In this document: in pieces, positions 1,715 through 61,389 of the stretch
Layout: every line of letters starts with the position of its first letter
How positions within the stretch are numbered: the stretch's first letter is position 1
Source of the DNA: Eledone cirrhosa
Taxonomy: Eukaryota
Assembly (NCBI GenBank): GCA_964016885.1
Contig: OZ024744.1
Coordinates: forward strand, 48,422,001 to 48,486,000
Direction of reading: 5' to 3'
DNA length: 64,000 bases
Position numbers and translations under genes: made by a program
The notes under the pieces: model-generated
Told to the model about the DNA's origin: nothing
What the model saw: the letters and a program-made list of their open reading frames with translations, nothing else
Database searches by the model: none

Positions 1715-1757
1715 ACGATGCTGACGATAGCTAATAAGCTTGAAACTAGTACATCGT
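1715..1757 (+). ncRNA. Minimal type I hammerhead ribozyme (family A)
   Basis: ACGATG-CTGACGA-T AGCT aata AGCT T-GAAA-CTAG-TA|CATCGT: 6-bp stem I, intact core, palindromic ACTAGT stem III, GUA site. Confidence 0.85.
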
Positions 1758-2044
1758 TCCTTTGTCAGTGTTGAACAAAGGGGCAACGATGGTTGCTAAA
1801 CACTGTACGGCTTAATTCGGGCTGTTTGTTTACAAACAAACCGAACATTATAATAAATGTTCGGTAAACCGATACGTACATATATATATGTGTACATGTA
1901 TGTATATATATATACATACTACTGTATGTCTGTATACATATATGTATGTACGTATGCATACATACTTTCATTTAAGTAACTGCCGTACTAAGAGTGAGAA
2001 ATGAAATTTTGTTTCATTTTTTCCATATATATATACATATATAT

Positions 2045-4342
2045 CATCATCATCATCATCGTTTAACGTCCATCTTCCACGCTTGCATGGGTTTGGACGG
2101 GAATTTTCCCACTTGAGGCAAGATTGGTTGTCTTGCTCGAATAGGACTGTCTGGCGGGTTTTCTACGGCTGGATGCCCTTCCTAACACCAACCACGTTTA
2201 CAGTGTGGACTGGGAGGTTTTTACCGTGTTGCCTACACGGCCACATTACAGCGTGGACTGTGTGTTTTTTTTTTGGCGTGACAACTACACGACCTCATTT
2301 GTTTAGGACTGGATGTTGTGGTACCAACATAACTTTACATTGAAAGGGGTGTTGTGGATGGGGTTGGGGTAGTGGGAAGGGGGAGTATTTTTGTTAGAGG
2401 TGCCTACTGATTGTAGGATTCGCTTTGTACTTAGGCAAGGCGGGTCTTCTGTATTACTGTGTTCTCGGTCCAGTGACATTGTCTTGGAGAGGTGTAAGTG
2501 TGTGAGGTCGGAATTTATCAAGTCGTCCCAGGATTTTCTGGGTCTGCCTACTCCGTGGCTACCGTCTATTTTTATCGCCCTGCCCTTTTTTATACAGCTG
2601 TCGTCTTTCATGCACATCAAGTGACCGTACCAACGTAGTCTTCTCTCGAGTAAACAACTGATCCCTCTTATTCCTAATTTCTCCCTTAGTTCATTTATGC
2701 TTTGCCGTTCACGCATATTACTATTACACATCCAGCGGAGCATGCAAGCTTCGTTCCTCTCCAGTCTGCGTATATCCTCTGCACACAATGCCCAGGTCTC
2801 ACTGCCATGTAACATTGCTGTTCGTATGCAGGCATCATACAGCCTGCCTTTCATTTTTAGAGAGAACCCTTTAGCGGCCAATAGTGGTATAAGCTCTCTG
2901 AACTTTTTCCATCCCGTTCTGACTCTAGCTACTGTACTTTCAGGACACGCTCCCCCACTGCTGATTTTGTCACCCAGGTAACGGAAGGTGTCCACTATTT
3001 CTATAGAACCATCTGTGCAATGGAATGAGCTAGTATTCTATGGGCACTTGCTGCTACTTATTGCACCAGAGCACCGGCCACATATAAAATCTATATTCTT
3101 AGTTAGCTTACCTGTGATCCAACTCAATCTTTTATGCACCCATACTTTGCATCTGGGACATAAAATGGAGTTTCTGCCTACACCTTTCCTACACACTGAG
3201 CATGGCCATTTCCCAGATAGGACCGGTGTCCTATTTTCCTTCCTACAAACTAGAACTTTAGTCTTAGACAGGTTAATTTTAAGGCCTTTTGATTCTAGGC
3301 CATGCTTCCATGTTTGGAATTTCTTCTCTAGTTCAGCCATTGATTCAGCTATGAGCGTTAGATCATCTGCGTATAGGAGTTCCCATGGGCAGCCGGTCTT
3401 GAACTCCTCTGTTATAGCCTGAAGGGCAATAATAAATAGAAGGGGGCTAAGAACGGATCTCTGATGAACACCAAATTTTACGCTAAACTCTTGACTATAT
3501 TCGTTGTTAATTCTAACCTTGCTGACCGTTTCTTTATACATGGCATGTATAGCTCTCACAAGCCATTCATCAACACCTAGTTTTCTAAGAGCCCACCAGT
3601 TAATGGAGCAGGGGCCTCTGTCAAAAGCTTTCTCCAAGTCAACAAAAGCTAAGTATAGGGGTTTACTTTTAGCTAGGTACTTCTCCTGTAGTTGTACAAT
3701 GAAAAGAGCATCCGTGGTACTTTTACCTGACACAAACCCGAACTGCATTTCATCTAGATCAATTCGCTCTCTGATTAGTTGCGCTATTACTTTTTCTGTG
3801 ACCTTCATGACCTGGTCGATTAATTTAATGCCTCTATAGTTACTCCTATCTAGGGCATCTCCTTTACCCTTGTAGCAGTTAATGATGATGCTGCTATGCC
3901 AGTCCTTTGGAACGCACCCATTCTGTATGACTTGATTTACTATGCGGGTGACCATGGTGTGTCCCACTGTTCCAGATGCTTTCAGCATTTCAGCAACTAT
4001 TTCCGAAGGCCCGGCCGCCTTGTCCGTCTTCATATCTTTGATTGCCTTACTTATTATACTACCTTCAACTAGCACTGCTGGTCCCTCTATTGGATCGATG
4101 TGGAGGAGACTGTCTTTCTCCCATTTATTCTCCTCATTTAGTAGCGTTTCGTAGTGACACTTCCAAGCTACCTTCTTATCAGCGTCAGTGATGACAAGTA
4201 CACCATCATCATTAAGGACACACTTCTCCCCGACAATATCACGGTTTTCCTTGACACATTGCCTAGCAATCCTGAACTCCTCACGTTTTTGGTCCTCGAG
4301 TTGTAGAACATGCTTGAACTTTCTTTCCTCTGCTTCCCTTCA
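2045..4342 (-). mobile_element. RTE-clade LINE (family 1), 5'-truncated, RT plus PHD finger, (ATG)n tail
   Basis: ORFs 3038-4075 and 2303-2995 carry RT motifs (YADD) and the RTE C-terminus RRLRWYGH...GRPRK; (CAT)n tail at 2045. Confidence 0.92.
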
Positions 4343-4480
4343 GTATATATATATATACATATATATATATAAAATAAGATAAACAAACAAGCAAATAAAT
4401 AAATAAATATATAGACAGACTGAACAAAAAAAATGGCGTAGACATACAACACAACAGGAGGAACAATGAATATAACACCA

Positions 4481-4508
4481 CTGACGATGTTGCAGATGTG
4501 CAACGAAA
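4481..4508 (+). ncRNA. Partial hammerhead core
   Basis: CTGACGA-T-GTTGCA gatg TGCAAC-GAAA; stem III and the 3' strand of stem I are not recognisable. Confidence 0.4.
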
Positions 4509-58835: not shown

Positions 58836-60439
58836 TATATATATGTGTGTGTGTGTTTACATATATACACATATATATATATGCACATATATATATATAT
58901 TACATATATAAACATACATGCATATATATATACACATATATATAAATATATACATATATATATATATAAGCACATATATATATATTACATTTATAAAACA
59001 TACTTGCATACATATACATACATTATATATTTATATATATATATAAATATACACATATATATATGCACATATATACATTACATTTATAAAACATACTTGC
59101 ATACATATACATACATTATATATATACACACACATACACACACACACATACACACATACATATGTGTTTGTATATATATATATATATATATACATATATA
59201 CATGTGTGTGTGTATATATATATATATACATATATTTATACATACACACATATATGCGTATGCACACACAATAGAGACAGCTGCCAAAACAGAGAGGCGT
59301 GACCTCTTAACAAAAAAGGGATTAGCCCCACTGAATAACAATAAGTAAAGGGGCCCCCTTTAAAAATAATGTAGCCATTCAGTCCCTTAAATACATGCAA
59401 AACAGGGCCATTTAGTTACAGAAATTAGGGGCCATGGGCAGGGGGGTTTAGGGACCTATGTGCTGGTGTGTGTGGTGTGTAGCAGGGGTGATGTATGGCT
59501 GTTGTTTACCCTGACTCGCCTACACACACTTATATACATATACACACATATATATATATATATGCATGCACACACACACACCCACACGCATATATACATA
59601 TGTTCATAAGCACATACATATATACATGCACACATACACACGTGTGTATGTGGACACGTACATGCACATTCATATATATACACACATATACAATATTTTC
59701 CACTACATAACAGACATTTGAAACTTATACGCCTTAAGACTTAAAACTACACACTTGATTAAACTAAGACCCGTTAGACTTGGTCTTAATAAAAGTATAC
59801 ACATACCATTTCTAAATGAATGGACCGTGACTATATAGACTGAAGGCCCATGCTTTGTTAGCCAGAGTTTTAATATATATGCACCCAGTACACTCTGTAA
59901 AGTGGTTGGTGGTAGGAAGCGCATCCAGCCAGAGAAAGATTGCTAAACTAAGGGCTGGGGGTACCCCAGTGTTGGTGGTTTACACAATGAACACATCCAG
60001 TACATGCTGTTAAGTTGTTGGTGATAATAATGGTATCCAACTGTAGAAAACCTTCAAAACAAAGAGTTGAAAGGATCCTTTAGTTATGTCAATGACATGA
60101 CAACTTCCCACATATTGGTGCTTTACAAAATAATTGCACTCAATGTATTCCCAAAAGTGGTTGATGATAGGAAGGACATCCATCCATGGAAAATCCGCCA
60201 AACATAGTGTCAGGAGGATTCTTCAGCTGTTTTAACAACATGATGATACCTCTAGTGTCGGTGCTATGATGAAAAGCTCTGAGTACAATTTTAAAAGAGT
60301 AGGAATCAATGTAAACTAGATTGAGCAAAACCCACTCCGCTCATCACAGAGGTTAGTAGCTCTACTCTGTGATGACCTGTCCATACTTTCTTAGCAGAGA
60401 GACCAGACTTTAATAAATGGTAAAGATTGGATGATGAAA

Positions 60440-60655
60440 ATAAGGATTTCTGACTTTGGCACAAGGACAACAATTGTGGGGGAGGGGAAAGTTGATTAAA
60501 TCGACCCAGTACATTACTGGTACTTTATTTTGTCTACCCAGTAAGGATGAAAGGCAAAGCTAACATTCATGGGATTTGATCTCAGAACGTAAATGAACAT
60601 AACAATATGTGACAAGGCATTTTGTCTGAGACTCTACCAATGATGCCAATCCACT
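60440..60655 (-). mobile_element. Older Meta-core-like SINE
   Basis: GGCACAAGG..CTGGTACTTTATTT..AAGGATGAAAGGCAAAG..GGGATTTGATCTCAGAAC. Confidence 0.7.
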
Positions 60656-61346
60656 GTTGTTATTATGATAATGATTAGATGATGAAAATGATAAGATTTC
60701 TACATGAATGGATAATGCCTATATAGACTAAATACCCATGCCTCGTTAGCCAGAGTGTTTAATAAATATGTGTCTATTCATGTAGACATATATCTGAGCA
60801 CATGATATCTTTAGAAATGGTTGAAGTCTCTAGATGTTTTCTTGCCAAAATATTTCACTTAATCCTCTTATTAGTAGTAATCGGGATGTCGATATTTCAT
60901 TATGCTAATTTCTCTCTCTCTCTCTCTCACTTTCTATATATATATATATATATATATATATATATATAAACAGTCCTATTATGAGCGAGACACAGTCACC
61001 CAACCCAACATGCCTCTAAATGGGACAAACCCATCTAGCTCATGCTAGCGTGAAAGATAGACGTTAATTGATGATGATGATGATATATATATATACAAGA
61101 ACACTCTTGCAGGCATGCACACACACACATTCATATACTCACACACATAGATACACACAAGGGAAAAGTAGACGTAAAAATTATGATGATGATGATGATG
61201 ATATATATATATGTATATAAGGAATTGTGATAAGAAACCAGATAGACCATAACGCACCAAAGTACTCAATACTTAGGGTAGTAGAGTGGGTAATAGGAGG
61301 TCATACTTGTTCCTATATATATATATATCATCTGGCAGGAAGGTAT

Positions 61347-61389
61347 ACATTGCTGACGATAGCTAATAAGCTTGAAAGTAGTACAGCGT
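61347..61389 (+). ncRNA. Diverged copy of the family A hammerhead
   Basis: CTGACGA-TAGCTAATAAGCTT-GAAA-GTAG-TA; flanks match 1702-1880. Confidence 0.65.

What the first reader, a model, noticed from the sequence alone, without database searches (positions are those of the whole stretch)
1715..61389. Many hammerhead-ribozyme modules embedded in (TA)n microsatellites
Seen: many short non-coding islands between TA tracts contain a type I hammerhead fold. Starts are 1715, 11529, 15147, 19074/19928/49346, 20426, 24826, 25026, 32358/36421, 41126, 43914 and 61347, plus seven family C copies and partial ones at 4481, 35707, 48735 and 53374. That is about 20 motifs from roughly a dozen sequence-distinct families in 64 kb, most followed by an AT-rich tail running into (TA)n. 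Established: type I and minimal HHRs occur in Penelope-like element (PLE) termini and in retrozymes. Inference: these are non-autonomous or truncated PLE/retrozyme-type elements that accumulate in (TA)n. I cannot tell whether this diversity and density has been described.
Basis: partly seen in the sequence, partly recalled or inferred. Interest (0 to 1): 0.88.

Follow-up and report, generated by a model that had tools for sequence, protein, structure and literature searches.

The report
Penelope retroelement ends carrying hammerhead ribozymes
The hammerhead-ribozyme motifs are real, and most are the cut-short tail ends of Penelope-like jumping genes that land in TA repeats, an arrangement already described in animals, although this genome likely carries an unusually large number of them (roughly 200,000 by extrapolation).

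Summary
Confirmed, but a known kind. A type I hammerhead descriptor finds 7 exact-core motifs in the window against 0.1 in shuffles. Stems covary, and helix III is usually a palindrome (dimer type). Five window families are the 3' ends of Penelope-like elements (PLEs). Four of them (19074/19928/49346; C; 25026; 35707) are linked to RT + GIY-YIG ORFs with Hydra-clade motifs, and 4481 to another PLE. The copies whose ends were mapped show the PLE signature: two fixed 3' ends abutting (TA)n, variable 5' truncation and inverted pairs. Three families (1715, 20426, 36421) are 370-460-bp tandem units with no ORF link found, so retrozyme-like. PLE hammerheads, Hydra insertion into (TA)n and retrozymes are all published, and this scan noted the same pattern in another genome. 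The window is not a hotspot: 27 motifs in 400 kb of evenly spaced genome samples extrapolate to about 200,000. One lead: in two families the short copies stop at one sharp 5' point that looks like the transcription start, which suggests 'strong-stop' mini-insertions copied from uncleaved RNA. Cleavage and transcription are untested.

The parts
1701..2020 (+). Family A unit (hammerhead 1715-1757, palindromic helix III); elsewhere in 415-428-bp tandems; two 3' ends about 55 nt apart
61327..61593 (+). Family A copy, hammerhead 61347-61389 with broken helix III
19030..20111 (.). Family B insertion: inverted short-end arm (19030-19265, -, motif 19073-19137) plus long-end arm (19265-20111, +, motif 19927-19991); 3' end of a Hydra-type PLE
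49199..49946 (.). Second family B-like inverted insertion (motif 49345-49409 on -, partial motif 49851-49946 on +)
20155..20686 (+). Family D partial tandem (unit about 451 bp; hammerhead 20426-20503)
25026..25160 (+). Family F mini-copy: starts 5 nt before the core, at the inferred transcription start, and runs to the long 3' end; terminus of a Hydra-type PLE
53332..53500 (+). Diverged family F-like copy, partial motif at 53374
45697..46154 (.). Family C inverted insertion: short-end arm 45697-45783 (-) and long-end arm 45846-46154 (+), both with U4A-core hammerheads; terminus of a Hydra-type PLE with intact ORFs elsewhere
14201..14671 (.). Two family C arms (14201-14384 +, 14470-14671 -), mutated motifs
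18196..18500 (-). Family C arm, motif 18258-18308
27949..28152 (.). Family C short+long inverted pair
36146..36272 (.). Family C inverted pair joined at helix I, motif 36198-36248 (+)
45090..45237 (.). Family C inverted pair truncated inside the motif
36289..36814 (-). Family G partial tandem (unit about 368 bp; hammerhead 36421-36468)
32270..32500 (-). A/G-related unit with a G8C core (motif 32358-32400)
35534..35752 (.). Family N inverted pair; both arms hold only the 3' half of a U3-A8 hammerhead; terminus of a Hydra-type PLE
4369..4685 (+). Family M: 3' end of a CCHH-type PLE; core and helix II at 4481, helix I at most short
15147..15235 (+). Type I hammerhead with long helix II; repeat family, no ORF link tested
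24826..24913 (+). Type I hammerhead with long helix II; repeat family, no ORF link tested
41126..41215 (-). U3-A8 variant hammerhead (read by eye)
43914..44004 (+). U3-A8 variant hammerhead, palindromic helix III
11529..11632 (-). Hammerhead-like motif, long helix II, weak helix I

Best explanation
The islands are 3'-terminal pieces of Penelope-like retroelements (four families linked to Hydra-type ORFs, one to another PLE) plus short tandem units that are likely non-autonomous PLE passengers, all likely inserted into (TA)n by PLE target-primed reverse transcription. Shown: the hammerhead sits in the pseudo-LTR about 20-250 nt upstream of two fixed 3' ends, full elements read pLTR-ORF-pLTR, and copies are 5'-truncated and often inverted. 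Inferred: a GIY-YIG endonuclease nicks (TA)n on both strands, and two RT units start at the two internal RNA sites, giving one long-end and one short-end arm. Most cDNAs stop early, so nearly every fossil still holds the ribozyme because it lies next to the start sites. The copies read through the cleavage site, so uncleaved RNA is likely the main template. The ribozymes are predicted to cleave poorly as monomers and better as dimers through the palindromic helix III. In families F and N the promoter likely lies at or inside the hammerhead, so starting at the 5' copy of the initiation sites would give 130-170-nt 'strong-stop' cDNAs that end at the transcription start.
For: Family C: L311 is hammerhead - 713-codon ORF - hammerhead, 3243 bp apart, with RWR, YRDD, CxCx5C, CxxC and CxH motifs; DKT in 3 of the 4 copies read. 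15 of 20 loci picked by the ORF end carry the C motif about 1.1-1.25 kb downstream on the same strand. 16 of 90 scored copies have an unbroken 713-codon frame. Family B: L120 is motif - interrupted ORF - motif - TA. Family N: same-strand ORF end about 1.1 kb upstream in 9 of 25 loci. Family F: ORF piece, UTR, TATA and motif in line in L293. Family M: ORF end 176-255 nt upstream in 4 loci. Two 3' ends per family. Inverted pairs are long+short in 11 of 11 incidental cases, and all 18 inverted partners among 30 long-end F copies use the short end. Covariation: family A score 0.087, reached by 1 of 500 shuffles. In 34 B-like motifs picked by a downstream anchor, helix II pairs swap A-U/G-C (19/9, 21/8) and U-A/C-G (19/13). 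Helix III is self-complementary in 19 of 27 sampled motifs. F 5' ends: 13-16 of 30 stop 5-7 nt before the core, 30 nt after a TATAAATA box. N: 45 of 48 arms never queried for end at or inside one point in loop II. Published match: Craig 2021, Frangieh 2024, Cervera 2014.
Against: The window itself has no PLE coding sequence, so links rest on other copies. No ORF link was found for A, D or G; none was sought beyond the loci at hand for 11529, 15147, 24826, 41126, 43914 or 48735. Pfam finds no RT or GIY-YIG above cut-off in the Hydra-type ORFs (0 families for 4 of the 5 pieces scanned), and no tree was built. The sharp 5' boundary is absent in B, C and A, so the strong-stop step is not general. 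The TATA-like word in N is weak and differs in one subfamily. One class of C insertions is joined exactly at the cleavage site (23 loci printed, picked by a query holding that junction), which could mean cleaved RNA is sometimes copied. Tails (55-93 nt in B, C, F, N and A) are longer than the published 30-40 bp. Related sequences can beat the covariation shuffles without structure.
Confidence: 0.88

Rival explanations
1. All islands are circular-RNA retrozymes: a monomer is cut by the hammerhead, circularised and reverse-transcribed by rolling circle.
For: A, D and G occur as head-to-tail units of 415-428, 451-464 and about 368 bp with one motif per unit, close to the 150-450 bp range in Cervera & de la Pena 2020. 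Copies run across the cleavage site, as a circle would allow.
Against: B, C, F, N and M run back into PLE 3' UTRs and ORFs, so they are element ends, not circles. Only dimers or partial tandems were seen for A, D and G, and a tandem precursor explains them equally well.
Confidence: 0.07
2. The very short F and N copies come from separate non-autonomous master copies (SINE- or MITE-like), or from RT stalling or fold-back at the ribozyme helices, not from the element's own transcription start.
For: Fold-back additions matching helix I occur at some F junctions. N's boundary lies in the loop of a long helix II, and its TATA-like word is weak.
Against: B and C have comparable helices and no pile-up. 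Short F copies share no upstream flank. The F boundary matches TATA + 30 nt and an initiator-like word (consensus recalled).
Confidence: 0.3
3. The motifs are chance matches in AT-rich, repeat-rich DNA.
For: Rfam reports nothing at gathering score. Several named sites score near background. One tandem array in the random sample gives 10 weak U3-A8 hits.
Against: 7 against 0.1 in the window; 27 against 0-2 in 400 kb; compensatory changes; fixed position in the pLTR of several unrelated PLE families.
Confidence: 0.01
4. The motifs are host-domesticated ribozymes with a regulatory role at this locus.
For: None found here; domesticated hammerheads are described for amniotes.
Against: Window density equals the genome average. 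Copies decay with inactivating changes and belong to high-copy young families at 92-100% identity.
Confidence: 0.02

Closest known systems
Hydra-clade Penelope-like elements (Craig et al. 2021, PMC8557442; Hydra section and passages read)
   Same: C-terminal GIY-YIG; DKT, RW(K/R), CxCx5C, CxxC and CxH motifs; no CCHH; hammerhead in the pLTR; insertion into (TA)n; inverted 5'-truncated arm; tail on one end only.
   Different: Units are 3.2 kb (C) and 3.95 kb (B), against 'generally <3 kb'. Tails are 70-93 nt. Copy numbers look far higher than the 'small number of additional families' reported (92,839 first-look candidates for one protein; not a copy count). Cores include U4A and U3-A8 variants.
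Minimal and palindromic-helix-III hammerheads of metazoan PLEs (Cervera & de la Pena 2014, PMC4209133; parts 1-2 of 4 read)
   Same: Many sequence families per genome, mostly solitary, inverted pairs 100-700 bp apart, unpaired base at the foot of helix II, palindromic helix III, U3-A8 variant, predicted dimers.
   Different: Helix III here is 6-17 nt rather than absent. The extrapolated count (about 200,000) is far above the 4,000-9,000 quoted there, but the descriptors differ.
Animal non-LTR retrozymes (Cervera & de la Pena 2020, PMC7229834, passages and axolotl section read; Li, Clavereau & Pollet 2026, bioRxiv 10.64898/2026.07.22.740005, parts 1-3 of 5 read)
   Same: Families A, D, G: short tandem units with one type I hammerhead; U-U mismatch at the base of helix II as in axolotl HHR_Amex2; proposed to be PLE passengers.
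   Different: Here the units show PLE-type double 3' ends and TA targeting directly. Circular RNA and loop 1-loop 2 contacts were not tested.
Poseidon PLE of Anolis in vitro (Frangieh et al. 2024, PMC11167929; parts 1-2 of 4 read)
   Same: Two internal RT start sites define the tail; both DNA strands are cut and extended; AT-rich targets; unprocessed RNA is the template.
   Different: Different clade. The long+short pairing of inverted arms and the sharp 5' stop at an inferred transcription start are not reported in the parts read.

Membership tests
Type I hammerhead ribozyme | Core CUGANGA...GAAA...UH in order with helices I-III | tested here: met
   7 exact-core parses against 0.1 shuffled; variants U4A (family C) and U3-A8 (N, 41126, 43914)
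Type I hammerhead ribozyme | Compensatory changes in the helices | tested here: met
   related sequences, so supportive rather than proof
Type I hammerhead ribozyme | Site-specific self-cleavage | not testable with these tools
   no assay; helix III hairpin energy 0.0 in 5 of 7 parsed motifs, homodimer -2.2 to -12.9 kcal/mol (3 of 10 sites did not parse)
Type I hammerhead ribozyme | Match to curated Rfam hammerhead models | tested here: not met
   0 matches at gathering score; no hammerhead family at E<=10 over 19850-20100. A library limit rather than a defining feature
EN+ Penelope-like element | Single ORF with RT and C-terminal GIY-YIG between two pLTRs that hold the hammerhead | tested here: met
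   L311 (family C) and L120 (family B, interrupted ORF); not inside the window
EN+ Penelope-like element | Tail: two alternative 3' ends | tested here: met
   B +100/+193, C +70/+156, F +54-61/+130, A +246/about +300, G +177/about +200, N about 80 nt apart
EN+ Penelope-like element | 5' truncation with inverted arm and partial tandems | tested here: met
EN+ Penelope-like element | RT groups with PLEs in a phylogeny | not tested
   no named reference set was at hand; homologues are 38-54% identical, mostly unnamed, many with PF26215
Hydra clade | DKT, RWK, CxCx5C linker, CxxC and CxH, no CCHH | tested here: met
   family C: RWR (1 of 4 frames reaches it), DKT 3 of 4, CxCx5C, CxxC and CxH 4 of 4; B copy: DKT, RWP, CxCx5C; F and N partners: CxCx5C. 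Absence of CCHH read by eye
Hydra clade | Insertion into (TA)n | tested here: met
   3' end followed by TA in 35 of 42 C, 11 of 11 F and 24 of 39 B arms (alignment ends lower the B count)
Hydra clade | Length generally under 3 kb | tested here: not met
   motif-to-motif 3243 bp (C) and 3951 bp (B); a tendency in the paper, not a criterion
Animal non-LTR retrozyme (families A, D, G) | Tandem unit of 150-450 bp with one type I hammerhead | tested here: met
   A 415-428 (one 511), D 451-464, G about 368 bp; D slightly over the range
Animal non-LTR retrozyme (families A, D, G) | No coding capacity, not the end of an autonomous element | tested here: inconclusive
   no consistent ORF link in the loci fetched; limited sample
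Animal non-LTR retrozyme (families A, D, G) | Abundant circular monomeric RNA | not testable with these tools
   no RNA data in hand

The most novel reading that the evidence does not exclude
This genome holds about 200,000 hammerheads, one per 15 kb and over ten times the axolotl density. Part of the load comes from an undescribed PLE shortcut: when the promoter sits at or inside the ribozyme, RT primes at the 5' copy of the two initiation sites and runs off the capped RNA end. This stamps out 200-250-bp two-armed mini-insertions with no need for a separate non-autonomous family. In family N the 5' copy would be a half-ribozyme that cannot cut itself.
Probability: 0.45. Interest if true: 0.55.

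Novelty: new member of a known kind. Interest (0 to 1): 0.3.

Why it matters
The basic finding is ordinary PLE biology, so it matters mainly for annotation: these islands are missed by Rfam and look like unknown short repeats. Two side results have some value. A young family with many intact ORFs (family C) offers material to test in vitro what Hydra-clade proteins and their ribozymes do, which is an open question for EN+ PLEs. The fossil record here (long+short arm pairing, read-through of the cleavage site, sharp 5' stops) gives genomic support for the two-start-site, uncleaved-template model proposed from one lizard element. The density estimate, if a full scan holds it up, would make this one of the most ribozyme-rich large genomes in the papers I could read.

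Tried and rejected
Rfam at E<=10 over the window: the 150 rows shown were microRNA and other low-complexity matches to TA tracts; 277 lower rows were not shown. A first strict descriptor missed motifs with a mismatch at the foot of helix II or a 2-nt loop 3 and was replaced. Family D follows a Neptune-like ORF in L037, but a long TA tract and that element's own U3-A8 hammerhead lie between, so the link was rejected. Family A lies 3 kb behind the same PLE type in L046 and L132, but that element ends at its own TA junction, so this link was rejected too. The idea that 5' ends pile up at the ribozyme edge in all families failed for A, B and C. The two scripts that scored F 5' ends both have artefacts (early stops at mismatches, over-extension into TA), hence the range 13-16 of 30. 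The wider count with U3-A8 cores (46 in 400 kb) was not used for the estimate, because 10 hits come from one tandem array. Expression: no RNA holder listed; no reads were laid. Host: two protein searches gave no close named relative, so the organism is not identified; a cephalopod is only my guess from genome size and repeat make-up. Lunse et al. 2017 (recalled: dimeric minimal hammerheads of PLEs) was not held and may give higher per-genome counts. Supplements of Craig 2021 and Cervera 2014 were not opened and may list cephalopod Hydra families. Literature searches made. None listed a paper on cephalopod hammerheads or on strong-stop PLE insertions; subscription journals are not covered.
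Full report
Setting. The window lies in a 3.0-Gb genome of 1,796 contigs. It is rich in (TA)n tracts and in fragments of a non-LTR retrotransposon ('RTE-type' is my recalled label). The host was not identified.

1. Observation. A descriptor for type I hammerheads that allows a mismatch at the foot of helix II and a short palindromic helix III finds 7 exact-core motifs, against 0.1 (max 1) in 40 local dinucleotide shuffles. 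With one core variant it finds 13 against 0.5. Of the 14 named starts, 10 beat the best of 300 shuffles and 4 only the 95th percentile. By eye two of those four, 41126 and 43914, have the U3-A8 covariant core that Cervera & de la Pena 2014 describe. Family C has a U4A core. Of the partial sites, 35707, 4481 and 53374 belong to motif-bearing families; 48735 does not rise above background. 18 of 20 motifs have (TA)4+ within 200 nt downstream, against 35% of random positions. Rfam finds nothing at gathering score.

Structure is supported by variation. In 27 family A copies collected by homology (2 of 29 with deletions left out), 94% of cells pair, against 19-37% for slid registers. One helix I pair occurs as G-U, A-U, U-G and C-G, and the covariation score is reached by 1 of 500 shuffles, while the two measures that count pairs or types are not significant. 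In 34 B-like motifs parsed from 55 sites picked by a downstream anchor, helix I pairs in 33-34 of 34 at each of six positions, and helix II swaps A-U/G-C and U-A/C-G around a conserved C-C mismatch. The slid control is weak for this helix (75% in register, 71% at a slide of two). Helix III is self-complementary in 19 of 27 sampled motifs and more stable as a homodimer than as a hairpin in the 7 of 10 sites that parsed. This fits dimeric cleavage; activity is untested.

2. What the islands are. The genome has abundant GIY-YIG sequence (10,596 first-look candidates), and long ORFs around such hits score as RT + GIY-YIG (3 of 4 non-Hydra proteins scanned). Family C: 15 of 20 loci picked by the ORF end have the C motif about 1.1-1.25 kb downstream on the same strand. 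L311 reads motif - 713-codon ORF - motif, and 16 of 90 scored copies have an unbroken 713-codon frame. Family B: L120 reads motif - interrupted ORF - 3' UTR - motif - TA; window 19265-20111 is its last 850 bp, with an inverted arm at 19030-19263. Family F: ORF piece, microsatellite-rich UTR, TATA box and motif in line in L293, and the same protein family upstream or on the inverted arm in L308, L296 and L298. Family N (35707): ORF end about 1.1 kb upstream in 9 of 25 loci. These four partners carry the CxCx5C linker, and B and C also DKT and RW(R/P), as defined for the Hydra clade by Craig 2021. Pfam misses them and no tree was made. Family M (4481) follows a different, CCHH-type ORF by 176-255 nt in four loci. 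The window itself has no PLE coding sequence. Families A, D and G form head-to-tail units of 415-428, 451-464 and about 368 bp with no ORF link found.

3. How it likely works. B, C, F, N, A and G each have two fixed 3' ends abutting TA. This is the PLE 'tail', which Frangieh 2024 traced to two internal RT start sites. Inverted pairs combine one long and one short end in 11 of 11 incidental cases, and all 18 inverted partners of 30 long-end F copies use the short end. I infer nicking of both strands of (TA)n and two cDNAs from the two sites. Because the ribozyme lies about 20-250 nt upstream of these sites, even very short cDNAs include it; that explains the many small islands. Most arms run across the cleavage site, so uncleaved RNA is likely the main template, as in vitro. 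Against this, a class of C insertions joins exactly at the cleavage site through helix I. They were selected by the query and are about 1-3 of 42 in the incidental set, and microhomology explains them as well. A short motif, T(T/C)GAGY, lies between the two ends in B, C, F and N and is a candidate protein-binding site (inference).

A family-specific extra. Of 30 F copies picked by their downstream part only, 13-16 stop 5-7 nt before the core (scripts 14 and 13, by eye 16), 5 extend upstream, and the rest end inside the motif or later. In the incidental set 7 of 11 arms end between -8 and -2. The stop lies 30 nt after TATAAATA, at an initiator-like word (consensus recalled). In N, 45 of 48 arms end at or downstream of one point in loop II, 22 nt before GAAA, and none ends between 23 and 29. 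I infer that these points are transcription starts and that the short copies are run-off cDNAs primed at the 5' copy of the start sites. A, B and C show dispersed 5' ends, so this is not general, and stalling or separate master copies remain possible.

Density. 40 evenly placed 10-kb stretches gave 27 exact-core motifs against 0-2 in 15 shuffles. That extrapolates to about 202,000 (bootstrap 105,000-315,000). The window's 7 against 4.3 expected is not significant (P=0.15). Over all fetched DNA, 225 distinct motif sequences fall into 59 clusters, a few of them probably spurious.

4. Comparison. Cervera & de la Pena 2014 already report large sets of diverse, mostly solitary PLE hammerheads, inverted pairs and U3-A8 variants, with 4,000-9,000 per genome in coelacanth and Xenopus. 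Craig 2021 report that almost all Hydra families insert into (TA)n and carry hammerheads. Tandem retrozymes, with 126,247 motifs in axolotl (genome 28 Gb), and their PLE origin are published. An Octopus vulgaris repeat paper lists recently active Penelope-like families and does not use the word ribozyme (passages). Earlier notes of this scan describe the same pattern in another genome; I had reached my reading before seeing them.

5-6. Verdict. These are new members of known kinds: PLE termini (Hydra-type by motifs) and retrozyme-like tandem units. What may be new is the scale and the transcription-start-bounded mini-insertions, both unproven. Interest 0.3.

Noticed in passing
window 1701-2020, 32270-32500, 36289-36814: Families A, G and the 32358 unit share an ATGCAAAT word upstream of the motif (octamer element, name recalled) and a similar hairpin in the tail; they look like one non-autonomous superfamily.
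   Followed up: partly
L311:781-2922 (reverse strand numbering): Young Hydra-type PLE with an intact 713-codon frame; 16 of 90 scored copies are unbroken. Pfam does not recognise the C-terminal 473 aa of this family.
   Followed up: partly
L124, about 1590-2320: Array of about eight 98-bp units, each a family C hammerhead plus TA; likely local duplication of a mini-insertion.
   Followed up: partly
L208:840-9641: Tandem array with ten weak U3-A8 hammerhead-like matches at irregular 0.5-1.9 kb spacing; real or spurious not settled.
   Followed up: no
L039, L040, L043, L050 (about 400 nt after the ORF stop): A Neptune-like PLE family with its own small hammerhead, preceded by CCAAT and TATA-like boxes; not among the window's motifs.
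   Followed up: partly
window 386-4340, 8627-10606, 21300-24350, 55980-58850, 61870-64000: Many fragments of at least two non-LTR retrotransposon families (RT plus PHD-finger-like Pfam hits in homologues), whose ends also abut TA tracts, so TA tracts collect several element types.
   Followed up: no
window 28617-28855, 35022-35241, 51871-52090: Short inverted repeats flanking (TC)n(TA)n(GA)n centres; these produce the spurious Rfam microRNA matches.
   Followed up: no
window 14880-15743: The 15147 element sits in an inverted arrangement with its end repeated at 14880-14986, 15417-15524 and 15587-15693.
   Followed up: no
window 48560-49093: Repeat with about 70-bp inverted ends around the weak 48735 motif.
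   Followed up: no
window 46868-47938: A 1.07-kb degenerate (TA)n/(TACA)n array.
   Followed up: no
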